From positions 1-37,320 of IMG/VR virus record IMGVR_UViG_2534681604_000010: DNA of 37,320 bases. One strand, written 5' to 3'. The translations under genes and the position numbers were made by a program. Position 1 is the first letter of the stretch; the number at the start of each line of letters is the position of its first letter. Below, piece by piece: positions 26,601 through 37,320 of this stretch. The notes below the pieces were generated by a model. That model was not told the origin of the DNA, searched no databases, and worked only from the letters and a program-made list of their open reading frames with translations. The stretch comes from a virus. Its lineage: Duplodnaviria > Heunggongvirae > Uroviricota > Caudoviricetes.

Positions 26601-26620
26601 AAAGGTGCCCTGGCACCTTT
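26601..26620. terminator. Hairpin between convergent Q and the accessory membrane-protein gene (likely bidirectional terminator)
   Basis: AAAGGTGC-CCTG-GCACCTTT perfect 8-bp stem, flanked by T-rich sequence. Confidence 0.45.
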
Positions 26621-27305
26621 ATCTATTGCACCTTGGATTAAACTTCCCTTCCACATAATTTACAACCTCAACAAATTCGCTACCATTTACCTCTCTAAAG
26701 CTAAAAACCCCTTTGCCATCTACGCATTTCTTTAAAACAAAATTTCCGTTATATTCTCCAACTACTATTTTTCCATCCAAGGTTTTCCATAGAACAGATG
26801 CAAACTGATTATGATAATTAATCCCTCCAAGAAAACTAGTAACTGACATAAAGAAAACCGTTAATATGGCATATACGAAATCTATATTAATCAAATCACC
26901 ACTTCGTTCAAATGTTTTGCACAACGACATTACCACCAACCATGAACAAATACCAAAAAGACCACCATTAAGATAGTTAACTAAGTCTTTTTCCCCCCTC
27001 TTAAAACTTAAAAAAACTGAAAATATTGTTATGGCAATAAAAATCCAAAGAACATACTTAATTTTATTAAGTTTAATCGCACCATCATTCAAAATAAAAT
27101 TAAAAACACCTATAATAATACTACCAAAATAGAAAAAAAGCTTTAAAGAAATATTCGCAACACTCGTTAAATCTAATGATATAAGTATTGCTGGATAACC
27201 AAAATAAACGGCCTCACCAAGTTTAAAAAAATATGCCAATATAAATAGCAACACCGTCAGTATTGTTACCAATGGAAAATCAAAGTTATTATTAAATTTA
27301 ACCAT
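26619..27305 (-). CDS. Hypothetical polytopic membrane protein (four to five predicted TM helices plus about 70-aa C-terminal soluble domain)
   Basis: 228-aa ORF in strongly AT-rich DNA between Q and cos; no family recognised. Confidence 0.55.
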   Translation of the reverse strand: MVKFNNNFDFPLVTILTVLLFILAYFFKLGEAVYFGYPAILISLDLTSVANISLKLFFYFGSIIIGVFNFILNDGAIKLNKIKYVLWIFIAITIFSVFLSFKRGEKDLVNYLNGGLFGICSWLVVMSLCKTFERSGDLINIDFVYAILTVFFMSVTSFLGGINYHNQFASVLWKTLDGKIVVGEYNGNFVLKKCVDGKGVFSFREVNGSEFVEVVNYVEGKFNPRCNR

Positions 27306-27360: not shown

Positions 27361-27651
27361 TTATTCTTTAATAAGAGTACCCCAATCTACATCAGATTCT
27401 GCAACTACAATATTAATTGAACATTGTATGCACTCCTCACTTATTCTCGTATAAGTGAAATATCTAGTTTTAACAATACCACTAAACGAAGACCGACTAT
27501 TGTCATTACATATAGAGACAAAATCACCTACATTGGGAAGTAGAAGAAAAGGATTTTCTTCTGACGAACAGCCTACTATATCTCCGTCATCAATTGGTCT
27601 TGTGGACCCTTTAGGCAAGTATTGGTAATCATAGCTATATATCGTCTTCAT
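27361..27651 (-). CDS. Hypothetical small protein, upstream partner of the membrane protein
   Basis: 96-aa ORF, same strand, 55 bp upstream of 26619..27305; AT-rich. Confidence 0.45.
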   Translation of the reverse strand: MKTIYSYDYQYLPKGSTRPIDDGDIVGCSSEENPFLLLPNVGDFVSICNDNSRSSFSGIVKTRYFTYTRISEECIQCSINIVVAESDVDWGTLIKE

Positions 27652-27936: not shown

Positions 27937-28548
27937 CTACGTAACCACAGTTAATGTGTGCATCCTGTCTCGAATTGCATCACACGTCTCATCAAAAAGC
28001 TTGGTGATGGTTGTATGGTTCAACTCCGCCTCTTTCCAATAATTTTGCCCGTCAAATTCTGGATCGCTATGCTTAAACGATATTGACTCTGAAAGGCATT
28101 CCTTCCGGAAACGGTCCAAGATTATATAAACCTCTGGTGAGATGAACGGTTTGTTAGATTCAACACTTGTAACAAAAGTGTTAAATGCATCAGAAAAAAC
28201 TTTCAACCTTCTAAATTTTCTCTCTTCAAATGGTTCGTTGGGGTCAACATGATCCAGCGCAGGCCTCAGCTTAAGCACGCTTTCTCTGGTTTCAAACATC
28301 GAATTCCAAATGAGACTATATGCTGATAACTCCTTATCAAAATACGCTTTCGTTACATAAACAGAATTGTCTAACTTAGCCTTTATTCTTTCATTAGTTG
28401 CACTCAGTTGTGATTGAAATTCAGCAATATCTTTGTTTAGCCGCGACTTATATCTTTCTAAATAAACTTTCCCGATCCAAACAAATATGCCAGATGCAAC
28501 AAAAGACACCCCACCCAACGAAGCCAGAACTTTAAAGACTAAATCCAT
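27937..28548 (-). CDS. Hypothetical membrane-anchored protein (N-terminal TM helix, soluble C-terminal domain)
   Basis: 203-aa ORF; AT-rich; located between gene A and cos, the tin/old accessory position of P2. Confidence 0.55.
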   Translation of the reverse strand: MDLVFKVLASLGGVSFVASGIFVWIGKVYLERYKSRLNKDIAEFQSQLSATNERIKAKLDNSVYVTKAYFDKELSAYSLIWNSMFETRESVLKLRPALDHVDPNEPFEERKFRRLKVFSDAFNTFVTSVESNKPFISPEVYIILDRFRKECLSESISFKHSDPEFDGQNYWKEAELNHTTITKLFDETCDAIRDRMHTLTVVT

Positions 28549-28930: not shown

Positions 28931-29164
28931 TTAGTGCAGCCAGCTGTCGTCTTCCCAAACCTGTTGCATAATTTCCATCACCCGCTTTTTGTCTTCATCA
29001 AGCTTTAAGCCACTCAGCTCAACGCCGTTTGCCGACCCTTTACGGATGCGGATAGCGGTCTTGGGATAGATGGGTTGCAGGTTGCGGTAAAGCTCGGACT
29101 CCAGAGCGTCCAGGGTAGACTGGCTAATCTTCTGCTCTTTATCGATCATTATTTCAATGCGCAT
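28931..29164 (-). CDS. DinI-family protein
   Basis: MRIEIMIDKEQKISQSTLDALESELYRNLQ...KKRVMEIMQQVWEDDSWLH resembles E. coli DinI (about 80 aa) as recalled; internal Met chosen as the start. Confidence 0.75.
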   Translation of the reverse strand: MRIEIMIDKEQKISQSTLDALESELYRNLQPIYPKTAIRIRKGSANGVELSGLKLDEDKKRVMEIMQQVWEDDSWLH

Positions 29165-29174
29165 AAAAGTCACC

Positions 29175-29363
29175 TCAGCTGATGACATCCATTGAGCGGT
29201 TGTATTCGTGGCTTCTGATTTTTGCCATGAGTTCATCAGTCAATTCAGAAACCCACTGCAGGGCCAGCCCCTTCTCTTCATCACTACACTCACTAGCCGC
29301 TACAAGCTTAAGAAAAAAATCAATGCGCTGGAGCTTCAAAGACTCCAAAAAATAGTCCTGCAT
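29175..29363 (-). CDS. Small acidic protein, first gene of the LexA-box operon
   Basis: 62 aa from the internal Met with strong RBS AGGAGG; sits between the LexA box and the DinI-like gene. Confidence 0.45.
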   Translation of the reverse strand: MQDYFLESLKLQRIDFFLKLVAASECSDEEKGLALQWVSELTDELMAKIRSHEYNRSMDVIS

Positions 29364-29516: not shown

Positions 29517-31931
29517 TTAATACAGGTTCCGCCACTTATCATCTTCCTGCAAACGCTGGTTCCGATAGAAGACACGCAGGCCTGCTCCTGACGGAATACT
29601 GCCGCCGCGAAGGAGTAAATCGACCTCTTTCTCGCTGCCATCAAATCCTCTGGACTTCAGTTCATAGACGAGCTGCTGTCGTTGATGGTCTGTAATTCGC
29701 TGTTTGTAGTCTCTACGCCGTTTCGGTTTCACCAGGCGTAACCTTGCAGCCAGTTCCCGGCGCTCTTTTTTGTTCATACTGTGCAGGTAATCGTGCAACT
29801 CCTTGTCATCCATGTGGGTAATGTCCGTTCTGGTATCCCCATCAGCTGATTTGTCTTTCCCTTGTTGGTTCAAATTTTCAGCAAGGGGACAGTTATTGCC
29901 ACGAGTCCAAGGGGCGCAAGCGCCCTGGTCGGCTGCCGCCTCCTGAACGTCAACGGCCTTACGAACCATTTTCCACTTCACTGCATGAGTGCAGATCTTG
30001 CCCTCTGCAATGGGTGACCAGATGCCATAAATACGAATACCGTGATCACCATAGGCGGTCGGCTCTTCGTTGATTTCATAAGCGGTTCTGATCAAGTGAT
30101 ATTTGCGGGGAACCAACACGCCGCCCTGCTTCATAATGTAGGTGGCAAAACAGCCAGCATCAGCAGCAGCCAGAATGGCATCAAGACGCGGATCATCCAG
30201 TACCGGCGCACCTGCTTTTTTGTCACCCTGCTGCCTTGCCGCCTGACCAGCCAGCAATCGCAGTTCACGGTAAGCCTGACGCCCCGGAATGCCAAAGAAG
30301 CGGAATTGCTGAACACGATGCAGAGACGCCCAGGCATTAACGTATTCAGCGTTATCACGCAGGGATTTACCCGTTTCCTTGCTGATCTCGCCAGCCAGAC
30401 CACGCCCGTCAATGTTCTTACTGATGTATTTCGCGATGTAGCTTGTCGGCGTTCCTTTGCGCGGGTTAATCAGCTCAGACTTAAAGCGTGGCCCCGTGTT
30501 ATTGCCCAGTTCCTCGCGGTCTTCACGGATGGCAAACTTACGCAGTAATGCAGTGATGGCGCGGCGGTCTTTTTTACGCATGAAGCACATGAGATGCCAG
30601 TGCACAGTACCGTCATGATGCGGCTCAGCCACCCGCACGCCATACCACCGCAATCCGGCTTTGTGCATCGCCTTACGAAATGCAGCAAACATGCCGACCA
30701 GATAATCACTGCTTTGTCTTACCGTCGCATTTGTCCAGGTCGGGTTTGGTCTGCCGTTATTGAGCGTGGAATGGAAACGTGACGGACAGGTGATGGTGTA
30801 GAAAACGGCGCAGTCACCGCGCATTTCCGCGATAAGCTCCAGACCTTTAACGCAGGCCATCATCTCATTGCGGCGATGTGCCGGGTTGCTGCTGCTGGCG
30901 TTTACCACATCTTCCATATCCAGCGTGTCTCCGTCTTCGTTCACCAGTTCATGAGAACGGAAAAACTCCAGCGACTTGCGGCGCTGCTCACGTTTATGCG
31001 TCACTGCTTCATAGCTGACATAGGGAGATGCTTTTTTGCTGACCAGACAGACAGCACGCAACTGCTCTTCCCGCCATTCGCAACGCATCTTCCACAATTT
31101 TCGATACCACCAGTCGGCGCAAAGCATACGTGCCAGCGAACCCGGTATGAGTTCATAGGGCACAGGTTTGCGGCGGTTTCTTTTCCGACGAAGTTTCTCA
31201 AACGCAGGCGGGATAACATCCAGACGCAGGGTTTCCGCAGCCACCTTTTCCCATGTCTTGCGGATTTCTTCTGGCTTAACGTCATCGGTGGCGTACAAAT
31301 CACCACAAGCGGCCTCAAGACACATGCTCATATGCGCTGCTACCAGGGTGGACAGGCGTTTCACCTGATCCTGGCTCATTTCAGGCAGGATCAGCAGCCC
31401 CTCCAGCCCTTGATGGCTTGCCATAAAACGGAAAGAAACAGATAGCTGACTGTCACGTACACAATCCAGTCGCTCCAGACATGGCTTAATCGTCTCACGC
31501 AAATAGCGGGAATAAGCCTTTGGCCTGCCCAGGCTGCTGAAGTATTCGATACGTTGCATCAGCGGCTTGCTGATATGAGAAGGCTGGGCGCTGACATCTG
31601 CCAGAATGACCATGTCCGGGTTAAAACGCTGCTGCTCATGCGCCAGCTTTGCCCGGCTAATGAGCTTATCCTGCTCCATTTCGCGCTGGACAGGATCACG
31701 GGATTCATTAAAGAAATAACGCTCCCAGACCTGCTCACTCAGTGCCTCGCGGCGCAGTTGTTCCTGCTCGTTATCGGCAGCGTACAGAGTGATCAGGTTT
31801 GAAAGTGCAGACTCCGGCGCAACTTCCGCCGGATCCAGATAAGGGTTAATGGCCTTTTTCGGGCCGTTCCATGAAAATGCTGCGGCAGCCTCGTTAAAGC
31901 CGCTAGAGTTGCTCATATCGTCATGACTCAT
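29517..31931 (-). CDS. A: Replication initiation protein gpA (rolling-circle HUH endonuclease family)
   Basis: 804 aa; contains a GTVHWH motif; P2/186 A position. Confidence 0.85.
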
Positions 31932-32785
31932 ACACGCACCTCGTACACAGCAGAACTATCCACGCCACGCGAAGGATCAAATCCCATCCAGCAGCGCGAC
32001 CCGGAAACAGCAATGATTTCTGTTGCAGATTTACTCTCGCCAGCTGACACGCCGATGCTGCGTTTTGCCTTGATGTAGTGGTGAGTGAAATTGCGATACA
32101 GCGAACGGATCAGGGATGTGTCACTGTTAGAAACAATGACCGGATGACCTTCTGATGATCGATATTCAAGAACGGATGCCAGGTGATACTGGTCATCTTC
32201 AGTGAAGCCGTCAGTGTGATAACCGGAAAACGTGCCGTCATACGGCGGATCGCAATACACCACATCCCCCGCCTTCAACATCGCCAGCGTTTCATCAAAG
32301 CTGGCGCAGATAAACGTTGCCCGCTGGGCTTTTTCTGCAAATGCGCGAATTTCTTTTTCAGGGAAATACGGATTTTTATAATTACCGTAGGGAATGTTGA
32401 AATGCCCGCTCTTGTTATAGCGACATAACCCACGGTAACCATGACGATTGAGATACAGGAAATATATCGCTTTCATGAAATCAGTAATTTCAGTTGAGTA
32501 ATTAAACTCCTGCCTTATGTTGTAATAAGCTAGGTCACTGTTTGCTTCCTCAAACAAAGTTCTGGTCCGCGATATAAACGCCTCGCAATCAGCGGCAATC
32601 TTTTTATAGAGGTTGATTAAATCAGGATTAATATCCGCAACCAGATAGCTGGGGTAATCCGTCTCCATCATCACAGCACAGGAACCCGCGAAAGGTTCAA
32701 CCAGTCGCGGGCCAGCAGGTAGGTATTTTTTCAGTTCGGACATAATTGCGGTTTTATTTCCCGCCCATTTCAGGATGGTGCTCAT
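31928..32785 (-). CDS. DNA adenine methyltransferase (Dam-like, N6-adenine)
   Basis: FAGSCAV (AdoMet-binding FxGxG) and DPPY catalytic motif; start at [11 protein letters not shown] with RBS GGAGGTG and ATGA overlap with the upstream gene. Confidence 0.8.
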
Positions 32786-33009
32786 ACAGCACCTCCGTTG
32801 TAATGTTTGCCTTTCAGCTCTGCGATTTCCTGACAGGTAATGCAAAGCTGCACTCCAGGAATGGCACGGCGGCGTGCTGGCGGAATTGGTGCTTCACATT
32901 CAATGCAAAGCACGCGAGACACGCCCGGTGTTTTGGCACGGGCAGCACGGATATGGCGCTGGCGTTCTTCTTCAACGCGCTGCTGTACGAGATCCATTGC
33001 ATCAGCCAT
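32782..33009 (-). CDS. TraR/DksA-family C4 zinc-finger protein
   Basis: 75 aa; CIECEAPIP...CITCQ four-cysteine motif. Confidence 0.65.
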   Translation of the reverse strand: MADAMDLVQQRVEEERQRHIRAARAKTPGVSRVLCIECEAPIPPARRRAIPGVQLCITCQEIAELKGKHYNGGAV

Positions 33010-33898: not shown

Positions 33899-34065
33899 TT
33901 TGACTTTCTCGGTTTCCTCGTGGTCAATTCAGACAGCAATTCATCTTGTGAATGACATGGATGCCAGCGTTTACCATCCTCACCCATGATCCAGCCGTGA
34001 CCGTAGTGCATTGCCGGGCTTTGTTTTACCAGCAGCGATGCAAATGATGGTTCTTTCGTCAGCAT
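33769..34065 (-). CDS. Hypothetical small protein immediately downstream of cII
   Basis: Start at ATG 34065 with RBS GAGGTG; the C-terminal third is in a frame overlapping the next ORF and looks non-protein-like. Confidence 0.3.
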   Translation of the reverse strand: MLTKEPSFASLLVKQSPAMHYGHGWIMGEDGKRWHPCHSQDELLSELTTRKPRKSKCMQRKVKWFISFVTEGKVIQYLKMICSVVIRRCRAMAVTFSR

Positions 34066-34072
34066 AAGCACC

Positions 34073-34591
34073 TCACAGCAAACCGAATGAAGCACCGAGG
34101 CCAGTTACGGTATCAACTGCACTCGCCATCGCAGGGTTAGCCTGTAAACGGGCCTGCAATGAAACAGCAGCCAGTGCCATCAGTCGTGTTACAGAGTTAA
34201 TGCTGCTGATGGCATCACGACGACCTGCACTGGTTTTTACATCGCCAGATACCGCACCTGCAGCAACACGCCCGATCTCTGCGGTTGCACTCATGACGTA
34301 ATGTGGCAGTTTCTCTTTTGCCACCTCATTAATCGGTACACATGGCAGACAATGAATCTGTGCCAGAAAACCGTCTACCAGCGTTGAATCTTCAGTCAGA
34401 TCGGTAAGCAGCCAGATTTCTGGTGCGGTTAATAAATGAGGTTGAGCTGGGTTCAGCTTGTTCCGCAGAATCTGCACATTCATGCCTGCACGTTCTGCCA
34501 GTTGCACCAGGTTGTGGCGCAGTGCGAATGCACGACAGGCTTCATCAAAATGTGGATGTTTGGAAACTTGGTAATCAAACATGGTTTTCAA
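34073..34591 (-). CDS. cII: CII-like lysogeny establishment activator (phage 186 type)
   Basis: [20 protein letters not shown]...[24 protein letters not shown]... resembles 186 CII as recalled. Confidence 0.8.
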
Positions 34592-34646
34592 CTCCGAACT
34601 TATCGCAAAATCGAACTCAGCGTCTTATTGTGAAAATAGACGTCTA

Positions 34647-34850
34647 TTAAGCAGACAAAGCATCAACAGTCAGAGCAGCCAGGTTAATCATTACCTTTTC
34701 ACGTTTTTTGTCTTTACGAAGACGATGACGAGGTAGTCGGCCATCAGCCAACATGTCGTTAATCGTATCAATAGAAAGGCCAGTCAGTTCGCTATAACGT
34801 TCGATTGTGACATGTGGTGTATTCAGAGTAATTGAAATGTTAGGTGTCAT
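34647..34850 (-). CDS. apl: Apl/Cox-like small DNA-binding protein (excisionase / lytic-promoter regulator)
   Basis: 67 aa; first gene of the lytic operon, divergent from cI, as in 186. Confidence 0.6.
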
Positions 34851-34995
34851 AAGGCAACATTCCTTCTAGATATGGCTTGTGGCGAGCCGTTGTTTGTCGT
34901 GATTAGTAGTGAAGGCTCCAAAAGAACACTTCTGGTTCAACTTTAAGATCGCTTTTGGAATCTGTCAACGAATTTTGGATTTCTTTGGAGGACTT

Positions 34996-35565
34996 GTGGA
35001 TTTCAATAGCGGCGGTAAGAAAGCCATAGAACGTTTAGTTGAAGCATATGGGTTCGGTACCCGTCAGGCTCTCTGTGATCATTTAGGTGTTTCTAAGAGC
35101 ACCATGGCAACGCGCTATATGCGTGATATTTTTCCAGCAGATTGGGTAATCCAGTGCGCCCTTGAAACGGGCACCTCGCTTAATTGGCTAACAACAGGGC
35201 ATGGTTCAAAGCAAGCATCAGCAAATACAAATACTATAGAAGTAGAAAAATATTTATTGTCTGATGGAGCATTGCAGAAAGACGGTTTTTATATTTTTGA
35301 TAAGGGATTTCTACCCTCTACGTTTAAAAAACCTTTTGTCATCACAGATAACAATTCTGAATTTATTTGTGATAAAGAATTTGATGATATACGTGATGGT
35401 AAATGGGTAATAAGTATTGATGGCGAAATAACGATCCGTGACATTACTCGTTTACCCGGTGGAAGAATCTTCGTCGAGGGTGGAAACAGAGCCTTCGAAT
35501 GCAAGATAGAAGACATTGAAATAATTGGTAAAATTATAAGTTTAACAGTCAAGTATGTTAAATAG
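34996..35565 (+). CDS. cI: CI-like immunity repressor (phage 186 type)
   Basis: ...ERLVEAYGFGTRQALCDHLGVSKSTMATRY...CALETGTSLNWLTTGHG... resembles 186 CI as recalled; GTG start at 34996 after GGAGG gives about 190 aa; the ORF track starts at 34909. Confidence 0.75.
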   Translation: MDFNSGGKKAIERLVEAYGFGTRQALCDHLGVSKSTMATRYMRDIFPADWVIQCALETGTSLNWLTTGHGSKQASANTNTIEVEKYLLSDGALQKDGFYIFDKGFLPSTFKKPFVITDNNSEFICDKEFDDIRDGKWVISIDGEITIRDITRLPGGRIFVEGGNRAFECKIEDIEIIGKIISLTVKYVK

Positions 35566-35580
35566 TACCGGGAGGAAACT

Positions 35581-35772
35581 ATGCTTGGTAAGGTATTTTT
35601 TGTGGTTTTGTCATGTTCTTTGTTATTAAACCCACTAACTACCTATGCTAGAAATTATCCCTGCTCAGGGAAAAAGGGAGGTGTTTCTCACTGTACCTCA
35701 GATGGCAAATTCGTTTGCAATGATGGAACTATTAGTAAATCCAAAAAAATCTGTACTAAAAACTCACGATAA
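35581..35772 (+). CDS. Small secreted cysteine-rich protein (signal peptide plus about 40-aa mature part with 4 Cys)
   Basis: RBS GGGAGGA before the ATG; hydrophobic N-terminus [23 protein letters not shown]; sits between cI and int. Confidence 0.5.
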
Positions 35773-35960
35773 CTTTTGCTTTTATATCTGCGTCTAAAAT
35801 AAAAATGAGCCGCATGTTAACCGCAAAAGTTACATGCTCACATAGCAAAAAGAATAGCCAACTTCATTATGGCTTCAGTGAGATGTATGGTCGTAGGATT
35901 TCATACATTGACACTGGTTATACATACAGTAAAAATGCTCTCTACTGGAGGGCATTTTTT

Positions 35961-36992
35961 ATGGCAGTACGAAAACTCACCACAGGGAAATGGCTTTGCG
36001 AATGTTACCCCGCCGGAAGAAGTGGGCGTCGTGTGCGTAAACAATTCGCCACCAAAGGCGAAGCTCTGGCTTTTGAGCGTCACACGATGGAAGAAACCGA
36101 ATCAAAGCCCTGGCTGGGCGAATCAGTGGATCGTCGAACCCTGAAAGACGTGGTTGAGCTATGGTTCAAATTACATGGTAAATCTCTGACTGCTGGGCAG
36201 CATGTCTATGACAAATTGCTGCTGATGGTTGACGCTCTAGGCAATCCTCTTGCAACCAATCTCACCTCTAAAATGTTTGCCCACTATCGAGATAAACGCC
36301 TGACAGGTGAGATCTACTTCAGCGAGAAATGGAAGAAAGGAGCCAGCCCGGTCACCATTAACCTGGAGCAAAGCTATCTAAGTAGTGTTTTTAGCGAACT
36401 ATCCCGCCTGGGCGAATGGTCGTATCCAAACCCACTGGAGAACATGCGAAAATTCACCATCGCAGAAAAAGAGATGGCATGGCTTACCCATGAGCAGATT
36501 GTTGAATTGCTGGCTGATTGCAAACGTCAGGACCCAATTCTGGCACTGGTAGTTAAGATATGCTTAAGCACAGGCGCACGTTGGCGTGAAGCCGTAAATC
36601 TTACCCGCTCACAGGTGACCAAATACCGAATTACCTTTGTAAGAACGAAGGGGAAGAAAAACAGAAGCATCCCTATCAGTAAAGAGCTTTACGAAGAGAT
36701 CATGGCGCTTGATGGGTTCAATTTCTTTACAGACTGCTATTTTCAATTTTTATCCGTGATGGAAAAAACGTCTATCGTGCTCCCTCGCGGTCAACTGACA
36801 CACGTTCTGCGCCATACGTTTGCGGCGCACTTCATGATGTCGGGTGGAAATATCCTGGCCTTACAAAAAATTCTCGGGCATCACGATATAAAAATGACTA
36901 TGCGTTACGCACATCTGGCACCGGATCACCTGGAAACTGCATTACGGTTTAATCCGCTGGCAACACTACCAACATCAATAGCAAGTTTTTGA
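35961..36992 (+). CDS. int: Tyrosine integrase (phage integrase family)
   Basis: C-terminal catalytic region ...HVLRHTFAAHFMMSGGNILALQKILGHHDIKMTMRYAHL (R...HxxR...Y); internal Met used as the start (343 aa). Confidence 0.9.
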   Translation: MAVRKLTTGKWLCECYPAGRSGRRVRKQFATKGEALAFERHTMEETESKPWLGESVDRRTLKDVVELWFKLHGKSLTAGQHVYDKLLLMVDALGNPLATNLTSKMFAHYRDKRLTGEIYFSEKWKKGASPVTINLEQSYLSSVFSELSRLGEWSYPNPLENMRKFTIAEKEMAWLTHEQIVELLADCKRQDPILALVVKICLSTGARWREAVNLTRSQVTKYRITFVRTKGKKNRSIPISKELYEEIMALDGFNFFTDCYFQFLSVMEKTSIVLPRGQLTHVLRHTFAAHFMMSGGNILALQKILGHHDIKMTMRYAHLAPDHLETALRFNPLATLPTSIASF

Positions 36993-37050
36993 AAATGCGT
37001 ATTTTGCCCTGTTGAGCTAATATTCTTTTTTTTCACATGGAGCACTATCA

Positions 37051-37320
37051 ATGAATAAGTTTCAGCATCAGGGAGCGGAATTGCGCAACAGAGCCAAAGA
37101 ATTGGCTTTATCCGTACTTAAAACTCACCCAGATGCCCAAAAAAACGGCAACGGCGTTAAGCAAGCTGAGGTATTTCGTCTAAGCGGCCTCGATTGGGGA
37201 GAAAAACGGAAAGCAACAAGTTCGAACCAACAATATTGGGTTGTTGCACTATTGCGTGAACTAGAAGAGGAGGGGTTAGTCGAACAGATTGAAGATAGAG
37301 GCCCCTGGCGTTTAAGGTAA
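37051..37320 (+). CDS. Hypothetical 89-aa protein just outside the integrase-side junction
   Basis: Complete ORF with RBS GGAG; charged, possibly a small helix-turn-helix protein; not recognised. Confidence 0.35.
   Translation: MNKFQHQGAELRNRAKELALSVLKTHPDAQKNGNGVKQAEVFRLSGLDWGEKRKATSSNQQYWVVALLRELEEEGLVEQIEDRGPWRLR

What the first reader, a model, noticed from the sequence alone, without database searches (positions are those of the whole stretch)
35581..35772. Small secreted cysteine-rich protein between the cI repressor and integrase
A 63-aa ORF with a good RBS, a probable Sec signal peptide and a roughly 40-aa mature part with four cysteines sits in the lysogeny module where it would be expressed from the prophage. 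It may be a periplasmic peptide affecting host-cell properties or excluding other phages.
Basis: inference. Interest (0 to 1): 0.5.

Follow-up and report, generated by a model that had tools for sequence, protein, structure and literature searches.

The report
Prophage-borne YdcA-family small secreted protein
The ORF is a real gene for a small exported, disulfide-locked, lysine-rich protein of the catalogued YdcA family, whose function is unknown, and it is carried as cargo directly behind the repressor gene of a 186-like E. coli prophage.

Summary
ORF 35581-35772 has a GGGAGG Shine-Dalgarno 5 nt upstream and encodes a 23-residue Sec-type signal peptide plus a 40-residue mature part with four invariant cysteines (net charge +7).

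It is not new as an entity. It passes NCBIfam NF007463 (115.8 bits, cut-off 93), belongs to Pfam PF27300 "YdcA" and PHROG 6000, and RefSeq calls identical copies "YdcA family protein". About 590 of 5,426 complete E. coli genomes carry it, including BL21(DE3).

What this work adds:
- Phage 186 has cI and int abutting. This prophage lineage has a cargo slot there, holding YdcA alone, YdcA plus a KAP NTPase (PADLOC candidate PDC-S20), or the NTPase alone.
- Haemophilus phages HP2 and S2 have an unannotated homologue right after cI.
- The mature peptide is 74-94% conserved where CI is 37-65% identical.
- The domain resembles the lobes of Legionella T4SS protein Dis2.
- The domain is repeatedly fused or adjacent to secreted nucleases.

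Function remains untested. My best guess is a periplasmic binding module, possibly for DNA, acting as a lysogenic-conversion or exclusion factor. The interest is modest.

The parts
34996..35565 (+). cI repressor gene. The probable start is GTG 34996, with GGAGG at 34987-34991. The mechanical ORF starts at 34909.
   Evidence: Pfam Phage_CI_repr 3.3e-31 and Phage_CI_C 4.7e-29. RefSeq annotates 570-nt CI genes in the BL21 and JA0266 relatives.
35570..35575 (+). Shine-Dalgarno GGGAGG of the YdcA-like gene, 5 nt before the ATG
   Evidence: Read directly from the sequence. It is conserved in BL21 and reads TGGAGG in JA0266.
35581..35649 (+). Signal peptide, codons 1-23 ([23 protein letters not shown]), with predicted signal peptidase I cleavage after A23
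   Evidence: Hydropathy and the -3/-1 residues. Family-wide signal-peptide statistics. This segment is only 17-38% identical between relatives whose mature part is 91-94% identical.
35650..35769 (+). Mature YdcA domain, 40 aa, 4.3 kDa, pI 9.7, four cysteines, motif [12 protein letters not shown]-x5[15 protein letters not shown]. The stop codon is at 35770-35772.
   Evidence: NF007463 115.8 bits against cut-off 93. Invariant columns. AF2 pLDDT 86-92 over this part.
35773..35872 (+). Non-coding 3' tail of the cargo cassette. It is present with this cassette and absent where the cargo differs.
   Evidence: Alignment with BL21 and junction comparison. Folding is not exceptional, z -1.3. No Rfam match.
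35873..35960 (+). Conserved int leader, retained whatever cargo precedes it. It contains promoter-like TTGACA-17-AAAAAT (35908-35936) and a 13-bp hairpin (35931-35959) with a U-run that sequesters the int Shine-Dalgarno GGAGGG.
   Evidence: Junction comparison of window, BL21, TUM3755 and JA0266. Hairpin folds at -17.5 kcal/mol, z -5.2, 0 of 200 shuffles as good. Promoter scan.
35961..36992 (+). Tyrosine integrase gene
   Evidence: Pfam Int_N 2.4e-32 and Phage_integrase 6.4e-22. PHROG 1 integrase 2.5e-74.

Best explanation
Shown or strongly supported: 35581-35772 is a genuine gene for a 63-aa precursor of the YdcA family. It has a Sec signal peptide (residues 1-23) followed by a 40-aa, lysine-rich (net +7) mini-domain with four invariant cysteines, presumably two disulfides. 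It is a cargo cassette inserted directly behind cI in the lysogenic operon of a P2/186-like prophage integrated between ybjL and rcdA.

Inferred: it is co-transcribed with cI. Only 15 nt separate the two genes, the ORF has its own Shine-Dalgarno, and no terminator lies between them. Most read-through then stops at the strong hairpin in front of int. Every lysogen should therefore make the peptide and export it to the periplasm.

Inferred, weaker: the mature domain is a non-enzymatic binding module for a highly conserved extracytoplasmic ligand. My best guess is DNA or another polyanion. In the prophage it would act as a lysogenic-conversion factor that interferes with incoming foreign DNA, in an exclusion-like manner.

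Approximate probabilities:
- Family identity and export: 0.9.
- Expressed with cI in lysogens: 0.75.
- Acts by binding rather than catalysis: 0.7.
- Ligand is nucleic acid: 0.3.
- Net role is anti-phage or anti-DNA entry: 0.3-0.35.
For: Identity:
- NF007463 scores above its cut-off, and PHROG 6000 matches.
- Homologues and neighbours carry precomputed Pfam PF27300 'YdcA'.
- The protein is 57% identical to E. coli K-12 YdcA, E 1e-19.

Coding and export:
- 11 synonymous against 1 non-synonymous change versus BL21.
- Signal-peptide statistics across the family.

Cargo slot:
- Phage 186 has cI and int abutting.
- Relatives carry YdcA alone, YdcA plus KAP NTPase, or the NTPase alone in front of the same int leader.
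- The NTPase is PADLOC candidate PDC-S20, E 1e-173.
- HP2 and S2 have the homologue overlapping the cI stop, followed by a Sie-like secreted protein and int.
- K139 has the periplasmic exclusion protein Glo in the same slot.
- Rousset et al. 2022 describe a cI-int defence hotspot in K139-like Vibrio prophages.

Conserved ligand:
- The mature domain is 91-94% identical in Klebsiella and Yersinia prophages and 74% in HP2.
- In the same comparisons CI is 37-65% identical and the signal peptide 17-38%.

Nucleic-acid link:
- Among 149 family representatives the domain is fused behind a signal peptide to Endonuclease_NS (3), SNase (1) and PLD-type nuclease (1), with one further Endonuclease_NS fusion elsewhere.
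- It overlaps a secreted SNase gene in a Legionella genome.
- It precedes a GIY-YIG nuclease gene in a plasmid T6SS cluster.

Hairpin before int.
Against: - No experiment or expression data were available, and pL was not located in the window.
- Nuclease fusions fit an envelope-anchoring role as well as DNA binding.
- Dis2 is a structural T4SS subunit near the outer membrane that contacts proteins (DotK, DotC, DotD), not DNA.
- A VasL (T6SS) fusion also points to envelope machines.
- Injected phage DNA is normally shielded while it crosses the periplasm.
- Such extreme conservation is unusual for arms-race genes.
- In Moraxella and Acinetobacter phages the gene sits in the late region, not the lysogeny module.
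- The chromosomal K-12 paralogue shows that the family is not phage-specific. Its only reported phenotype is sensitivity to 3-hydroxypropionate.
Confidence: 0.4

Rival explanations
1. Envelope-architecture or stress factor. The mini-domain docks onto conserved envelope components near the outer membrane (proteins, peptidoglycan or lipid head groups), as Dis2 does in the Dot/Icm core complex. The prophage copy then improves host envelope fitness, for example acid or organic-acid tolerance, rather than blocking phages.
For: - Dis2 resemblance: Foldseek top hit with probability 0.82 and 37% identity, profile E 2.2e-4, hhalign 85%, and PF27300 precomputed on a Dis2-like protein.
- Dis2 lies next to the outer membrane and contacts DotK, DotC and DotD.
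- There is a VasL fusion and a copy inside a T6SS cluster.
- Deleting K-12 ydcA sensitises cells to 3-hydroxypropionate, and ydcA is reported to be induced at acid pH.
- The very high conservation of the mature domain fits a conserved host target.
Against: - Dis2 is dispensable and its role is unknown.
- The window contains no T4SS or T6SS.
- Fusions to three unrelated nuclease folds need a separate explanation, such as anchoring.
- The other cargo seen in the same slot is defence or exclusion related.
Confidence: 0.25
2. Partner or modulator of a periplasmic nuclease. The free peptide recruits, activates or inhibits a host periplasmic nuclease such as Endonuclease I. This would mimic in trans what the fused versions do in cis.
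For: - Fusions to Endonuclease_NS, SNase and PLD nucleases.
- Overlapping YdcA and SNase genes in Legionella.
- A GIY-YIG nuclease neighbour.
Against: No nuclease gene lies next to the ORF in the window or in any of the prophage loci examined. Most family members are stand-alone.
Confidence: 0.1
3. Secreted cationic antimicrobial peptide or bacteriocin-like toxin aimed at competitors.
For: The mature peptide is small, strongly cationic (pI 9.7) and should form two disulfides. This superficially resembles defensin-type peptides.
Against: - A Sec signal alone delivers only to the periplasm in Gram-negative bacteria.
- No immunity, export or processing genes lie nearby.
- The same domain is a module inside larger periplasmic proteins and resembles the lobes of a structural T4SS subunit.
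- A housekeeping chromosomal copy exists in K-12.
Confidence: 0.04
4. Hitch-hiking or untranslated ORF that matters only as spacer DNA or RNA between cI and int.
For: The slot tolerates different contents and can be empty, as in phage 186.
Against: - Strong purifying selection on the reading frame, 11 synonymous to 1 non-synonymous change.
- 74-94% amino-acid conservation of the mature domain across genera while the flanking genes diverge.
- A conserved Shine-Dalgarno.
Confidence: 0.03

Closest known systems
YdcA family (Pfam PF27300 'YdcA'; NCBIfam NF007463/PRK10040.1-2; PHROG 6000; E. coli K-12 YdcA b1419)
   Same: - Same architecture: signal peptide plus one roughly 35-aa four-cysteine domain with the motif PCSG-K-GG-[VI]-S-H-C...F-[VI]-C-N-D-G-x-x-S-x-S-K-x-x-C.
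- Scores above the curated cut-off.
- 57% identical to K-12 YdcA.
- RefSeq already labels identical copies 'YdcA family protein'.
   Different: - It is the prophage-borne subtype. It scores 115.8 bits on NF007463 but only 68.5 on NF007462, whose cut-off is 118.
- It sits in a lysogenic operon, not next to rydC and cybB.
- The family itself has no established function.
Unannotated 60-aa ORF of Haemophilus phages HP2 and S2 (NC_003315.1, complement 2486-2668)
   Same: Same position immediately after cI in a P2-family lysogenic operon. The mature domain is 74% identical and it has its own signal peptide.
   Different: Its start overlaps the cI stop (TAATG). It is followed by a 254-aa secreted Sie-like protein before int. 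It is not annotated in the record.
Dis2 (Lpg0823), outer-membrane-cap subunit of the Legionella pneumophila Dot/Icm T4SS (PDB 7MUC/7MUD)
   Same: Each Dis2 lobe carries the motif C-S-K-M-GG-I-x-x-C...VCN[ND]G-x-x-S. It is the Foldseek top hit at 37% identity, with profile E 2.2e-4 and hhalign probability 85%. A Dis2-like protein carries precomputed PF27300. Both are exported and rich in disulfides.
   Different: - Dis2 has two tandem lobes and five disulfides, and is built into a T4SS. The window protein has one lobe, four cysteines and no T4SS nearby.
- With the signal peptide removed the sequence match is only E 0.018, no better than LDL-receptor repeats.
- The Legionella literature calls Dis2 Legionella-specific.
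Glo of Vibrio cholerae phage K139
   Same: Glo is encoded between cI and int of a P2-family phage and is annotated as periplasmic and involved in phage exclusion. It is a positional and possibly functional analogue.
   Different: There is no sequence similarity, BLASTP E 0.16. Glo is 137 aa and of a different type. The primary paper (Nesper et al. 1999) could not be read.
YdcA-domain fusions to secreted nucleases (e.g. P0110 SNase; P0170 and P0191 Endonuclease_NS; P0172 PLD-type)
   Same: The same N-terminal signal peptide and YdcA domain.
   Different: These carry a linker and a catalytic nuclease domain. The window protein is the bare domain.

Membership tests
YdcA family (PF27300 / NF007463) | Score above the curated HMM cut-off | tested here: met
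   NF007463 scores 115.8 bits against a cut-off of 93, covering profile positions 1-58 of 58. PF27300 is precomputed on the 98%-identical cluster representative. The local Pfam copy lacks this model.
YdcA family (PF27300 / NF007463) | Conserved four-cysteine motif PCSG-K-GG...FxCxDGxxSxSKxxC | tested here: met
   All invariant columns are present in the window protein.
YdcA family (PF27300 / NF007463) | N-terminal Sec signal peptide directly preceding the domain | tested here: met
   Hydropathy and the T-Y-A cleavage site, plus family statistics. This was judged from sequence features only, without SignalP or any experiment.
Dis2-type T4SS outer-membrane-cap subunit | Two tandem lobes pinned by five disulfides | tested here: not met
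   The window protein has a single lobe and four cysteines in its mature part.
Dis2-type T4SS outer-membrane-cap subunit | Lobe-level sequence and structure similarity | tested here: inconclusive
Dis2-type T4SS outer-membrane-cap subunit | Encoded with, or assembled into, a Dot/Icm-type T4SS | tested here: not met
   Every window gene that could be assigned is a P2/186-type phage gene or the flanking host gene, and no T4SS gene was found. The cargo ORFs between portal and gpA remain unassigned.
Prophage superinfection-exclusion proteins of the cI-int slot (K139 Glo type) | Encoded between cI and int in the lysogenic operon | tested here: met
   compared with K139.
Prophage superinfection-exclusion proteins of the cI-int slot (K139 Glo type) | Sequence homology to Glo | tested here: not met
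   BLASTP E 0.16 and 23% identity over 30 aa.
Prophage superinfection-exclusion proteins of the cI-int slot (K139 Glo type) | Reduces plating of superinfecting phage | not testable with these tools
   This needs efficiency-of-plating assays with and without the gene.
Known or candidate anti-phage defence systems (PADLOC-DB 2.0) | Match to a defence-protein model | tested here: not met
   The ORF has no match, while the KAP NTPase that shares the slot in relatives matches PDC-S20 at E 1e-173.
Bacterial lipoproteins (Cor/Llp-type exclusion lipoproteins) | Lipobox with the cysteine at a suitable distance from the N-terminus, conserved in relatives | tested here: not met
   VLS-C12 formally resembles a lipobox. 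However, C12 lies inside the hydrophobic core, only 7 hydrophobic residues after K4, and it is not conserved across the family. Conservation starts after A23.

The most novel reading that the evidence does not exclude
YdcA mini-domains are a widespread periplasmic nucleic-acid-binding or nuclease-recruiting module. Temperate phages from Enterobacterales to Pasteurellales would express it from the repressor operon as a new, periplasm-acting barrier to incoming DNA (phage, plasmid or transforming DNA). The same module would have been duplicated to build Dis2 of the Dot/Icm secretion machine, so Dis2 would not be 'Legionella-specific'.
Probability: 0.12. Interest if true: 0.7.

Novelty: already known. 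Interest (0 to 1): 0.33.

Why it matters
The gene itself is catalogued, so the finding is ordinary as an entity. Its value is that it gives an orphan y-gene family concrete, testable leads:
- It has a fixed place behind cI in many lysogens, including the laboratory strain BL21(DE3).
- Its mature peptide is far more conserved than the phage's own repressor and integrase.
- It is probably related to a solved structure, Dis2.
- It recurs with secreted nucleases of unrelated folds.

If the peptide blocks DNA entry from the periplasm, it would be a new kind of prophage-encoded exclusion factor and would assign a function to E. coli YdcA. If it does not, it remains one more small lysogenic-conversion gene of unknown role.

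Tried and rejected
- **Local Pfam scan of the ORF:** only a sub-threshold chance hit, because the local copy lacks PF27300.
- **Rfam on 34000-37320:** no match, so the cassette tail and int leader are not a known RNA family. The cassette tail does not fold unusually, z -1.3.
- **PADLOC:** no match for the ORF.
- **Homology to K139 Glo:** rejected.
- **Lipoprotein reading of VLS-C12:** rejected, because of the cysteine's position and lack of conservation.
- **Recalled resemblance to DUF3761:** I remembered a possible circularly permuted motif, but hmmscan at E<=1 gave no support, so I dropped it.
- **Similarity to LDL-receptor class A and Pin-II inhibitor repeats:** treated as cysteine-rich noise.
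- **Literature:** searches for YdcA, 'YdcA family', PF27300 and the BL21 accession found no functional study. They gave only a 3-hydroxypropionate sensitivity phenotype and predictions of periplasmic location.
- **Nesper et al. 1999 on Glo:** not held in the library.
- **UniRef name 'Conjugal transfer protein' for the cluster:** I found nothing to support it. The Acinetobacter plasmid copy is not next to transfer genes.

Full report
**1. The observation**

The ORF is at exactly the stated coordinates, 35581..35772 on the + strand, and encodes 63 aa. GGGAGG lies at 35570-35575, 5 nt before the ATG. The ORF starts 15 nt after the stop of the upstream gene and ends 188 nt before the next gene.

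- Upstream is a 186-type CI repressor (Pfam Phage_CI_repr and Phage_CI_C). Its probable start is GTG 34996.
- Downstream is a tyrosine integrase (35961-36992).
- An Apl/Cox-like gene and a CII (Phage_CP76) gene diverge on the other strand.

The window as a whole is a complete P2/186-like prophage with gpD, tape measure, terminase, portal, gpA and a Dam methylase. It lies next to a host ybjL-like permease gene at 659-2344. In relatives rcdA follows the integrase end.

**2. Is it a real gene?**

Yes.
- It scores 115.8 bits on NCBIfam NF007463 (cut-off 93) and E 1.9e-34 on PHROG 6000.
- Its homologues carry the precomputed Pfam family PF27300, named YdcA. The local Pfam copy lacks that model, which explains the empty Pfam result.
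- It is 57% identical to E. coli K-12 YdcA (b1419), E 1e-19.
- A profile search of 1.84 billion cluster representatives finds 452 members at E<=1e-3.
- Against the BL21(DE3) allele (93.9% DNA identity) there are 11 synonymous codon changes and one conservative change (R24K). Eleven of the twelve differences are at third positions.
- RefSeq already annotates identical copies as 'YdcA family protein' or 'hypothetical protein'. The 395-bp cassette is present at >=80% coverage in 590 of 5,426 complete E. coli genomes.

**3. Anatomy of the protein**

The N-terminus has K4, the hydrophobic core [12 protein letters not shown] and the sequence T-Y-A before R24. In alignments the first 20-25 residues vary freely, and conservation begins right after an almost invariant alanine.

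Across 185 family members:
- 97% have a strongly hydrophobic N-terminal stretch.
- 90% have K/R in the n-region.
- In 156 of 179 members an Ala lies 3-5 residues before the conserved Pro, mostly with A, S, V, T or G at -3.

I therefore accept a signal peptidase I site after A23. No dedicated predictor and no experiment was available.

C12 with the preceding VLS looks like a lipobox, but it lies inside the hydrophobic core and is not conserved, so I reject the lipoprotein reading.

The mature part is 40 aa, 4.3 kDa and pI 9.7, with 9 K/R against 2 D/E and four invariant cysteines. AlphaFold2 with 44 sequences gives pLDDT 86-92 for this part and a small beta-hairpin core.

**4. Genomic setting: a cargo slot behind cI**

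In phage 186 cI and int abut with no room between them. In this prophage lineage the interval varies:
- YdcA alone in the window, in BL21(DE3) and in Yersinia.
- YdcA plus a 443-aa KAP P-loop NTPase in E. coli JA0266 and others, and in Klebsiella.
- The NTPase alone in TUM3755.

The NTPase matches the PADLOC defence candidate PDC-S20 at E 1e-173.

About 88 nt in front of int stay the same whatever precedes them. They contain a promoter-like TTGACA-17-AAAAAT and a 13-bp hairpin at 35931-35959. The hairpin folds at -17.5 kcal/mol with z -5.2, and none of 200 shuffles folds as well. It ends in a U-run and pairs with the int Shine-Dalgarno GGAGGG.

I infer that transcripts from the lysogenic promoter cover cI and the YdcA gene and largely stop, or are translationally silenced, before int. 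Neither transcription nor the position of pL was established here.

**5. The same arrangement far away**

tblastn against phage genomes finds the domain in Haemophilus phages HP2 and S2. There an unannotated 60-aa ORF begins on the last base of the cI stop codon. A 254-aa secreted protein and int follow it. That 254-aa protein hits a PHROG annotated 'superinfection exclusion Sie-like'.

Vibrio phage K139 carries orf2 and glo between cI and int, and the record annotates Glo as a periplasmic protein involved in phage exclusion. Rousset et al. 2022 describe a cI-int defence hotspot in K139-like Vibrio prophages. Glo is not homologous to the window protein.

Elsewhere the YdcA gene sits in other typical 'moron' (accessory cargo gene) positions:
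- Before the tape-measure gene in Moraxella and Acinetobacter phages.
- Next to ogr and gpD at the end of a Proteus P2-like prophage.
- After the tail-fibre invertase at the end of another E. coli prophage.

Chromosomal and plasmid copies also exist.

**6. Constraint**

| Relative | CI identity | Int identity | Signal peptide identity | Mature domain identity |
|---|---|---|---|---|
| E. coli L010 | 65% | 96% | 29% | 94% |
| Klebsiella | 65% | 91% | 17% | 91% |
| Yersinia | 37% | 49% | 38% | 91% |
| HP2 | 38% | 51% | 21% | 74% |

The mature peptide is more constrained than the phage's own lysogeny proteins. This argues for a conserved host or universal ligand rather than a fast-evolving phage target.

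**7. Leads on what the domain does**

(a) Resemblance to Dis2.
- The only structural neighbour is chain AN of PDB 7MUC/7MUD: Foldseek E 0.37, probability 0.82, 37% identity.
- The family profile hits the same chain by sequence at E 2.2e-4.
- With the signal peptide removed the hit drops to E 0.018, level with LDL-receptor repeats.
- hhalign against a Dis2-like protein gives 85% probability, and that protein carries precomputed PF27300.
- Later work found Dis2 dispensable and called it Legionella-specific.
- I regard homology of the lobes as probable, not proven.

(b) Association with nucleases.
- Among 149 family representatives, eleven Pfam-domain matches other than YdcA were found. Six are nuclease-family matches from three unrelated folds, in five proteins: Endonuclease_NS x3, SNase x1 and PLD-type x1, with one of the Endonuclease_NS proteins also matching Endonuclea_NS_2.
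- The remaining matches are VasL, DUF4124, PBCV basic adaptor and TerY_C. A further Endonuclease_NS fusion appears.
- In a Legionella genome the YdcA gene overlaps the start of a secreted SNase gene.
- In a Citrobacter plasmid a YdcA-domain gene sits in a T6SS cluster next to a GIY-YIG nuclease gene.

These associations fit either a DNA- or polyanion-binding module, or a module that anchors periplasmic proteins to the envelope.

**8. Interpretation**

Shown: a genuine, selected, Sec-type exported four-cysteine protein of the YdcA family, inserted as cargo behind cI.

Inferred: it is co-expressed with CI and resides in the periplasm with two disulfides.

Guess: it acts by binding, most likely DNA or another polyanion, and serves the lysogen by interfering with incoming DNA. 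Support comes from the company it keeps in the slot and from the nuclease fusions.

The main rival is an envelope-architecture or stress role modelled on Dis2 and on the K-12 ydcA phenotype, which is sensitivity to 3-hydroxypropionate with reported acid induction. A role as nuclease partner, as antimicrobial peptide or as a mere passenger is less likely.

**9. Novelty and score**

The entity is already catalogued and named, so it is not a discovery.

The modest new value lies in four points:
- The slot analysis.
- The unannotated HP2/S2 gene.
- The probable Dis2 relationship, which contradicts the 'Legionella-specific' label.
- The nuclease associations.

Interest is about 0.33.

Noticed in passing
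window 35873-35960 (hairpin 35931-35959; promoter-like 35908-35936): The int leader is conserved in all relatives examined, whatever cargo precedes it. It holds a 13-bp A/U-flanked hairpin (-17.5 kcal/mol, z -5.2) that ends in a U-run one base before the int ATG and pairs with the int Shine-Dalgarno. A TTGACA-17-AAAAAT promoter-like site lies just upstream, and a transcript from it would start inside the 5' arm and so escape the hairpin. This looks like a device to keep int silent in lysogens. Phage 186 has nothing comparable, because its cI and int abut.
   Followed up: partly
   Followed up: partly
L006 1653-2984; L007 3212-4543; L010-L015 4198-5529: The alternative or additional cargo of the same cI-int slot is a 443-aa KAP-family P-loop NTPase matching PADLOC defence candidate PDC-S20 (E 1e-173). 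It also matches PifA and QatA more weakly. The TUM3755-type allele is in only 15 complete E. coli genomes.
   Followed up: partly
window 26619-27305, 27361-27651, 27937-28548 (all - strand): Three ORFs (228, 96 and 203 aa) lie between the portal gene and gpA, which is the main P2 defence hotspot described in the literature. They have no Pfam or PADLOC match and hit only PHROGs of unknown function (35408, 12676, 26391). They may be an uncharacterised cargo or defence module.
   Followed up: partly
window 37051-37320 (+): An 89-aa ORF lies between int and the prophage end, with only faint winged-helix-like hits. TUM3755 has a gene of the same length (89 aa) annotated at this position, and BL21(DE3) has a different 110-aa gene there. 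The int-att interval has been reported as a minor P2 defence hotspot.
   Followed up: no
L026 4001-4751 (Legionella sp. 27cVA30) and L023 4926-6727 (Citrobacter plasmid NZ_CP053574.1): YdcA-domain genes occur directly beside nuclease genes. In Legionella one overlaps a secreted SNase gene. In the Citrobacter plasmid one sits inside a T6SS cluster (after tssE) and is followed by a GIY-YIG nuclease gene, with a VasL-domain gene nearby.
   Followed up: partly
P0056, P0058, P0060, P0062, P0100, P0122 (family members 101-153 aa; P0056 is from Herbaspirillum, the sources of the others are not known): These longer family members add a second cysteine-rich C-terminal module (C-x-C...C-[TA]-G-P-R-G-G-x-Y-C...G-x-x-x-Y). 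It weakly matches the Pfam 'PBCV-specific basic adaptor domain', another small basic domain of unknown role.
   Followed up: no
window 31928-32845 (-) and 28931-29236 (-): The prophage carries a D12-class N6-adenine DNA methyltransferase next to gpA and a DinI-like gene. These are common accessory genes of this phage group.
   Followed up: no
cluster of P0001: UniRef names this protein cluster 'Conjugal transfer protein'. I found nothing to support the name. It may be a propagated annotation, or a distant echo of the Dis2/T4SS relationship.
   Followed up: partly
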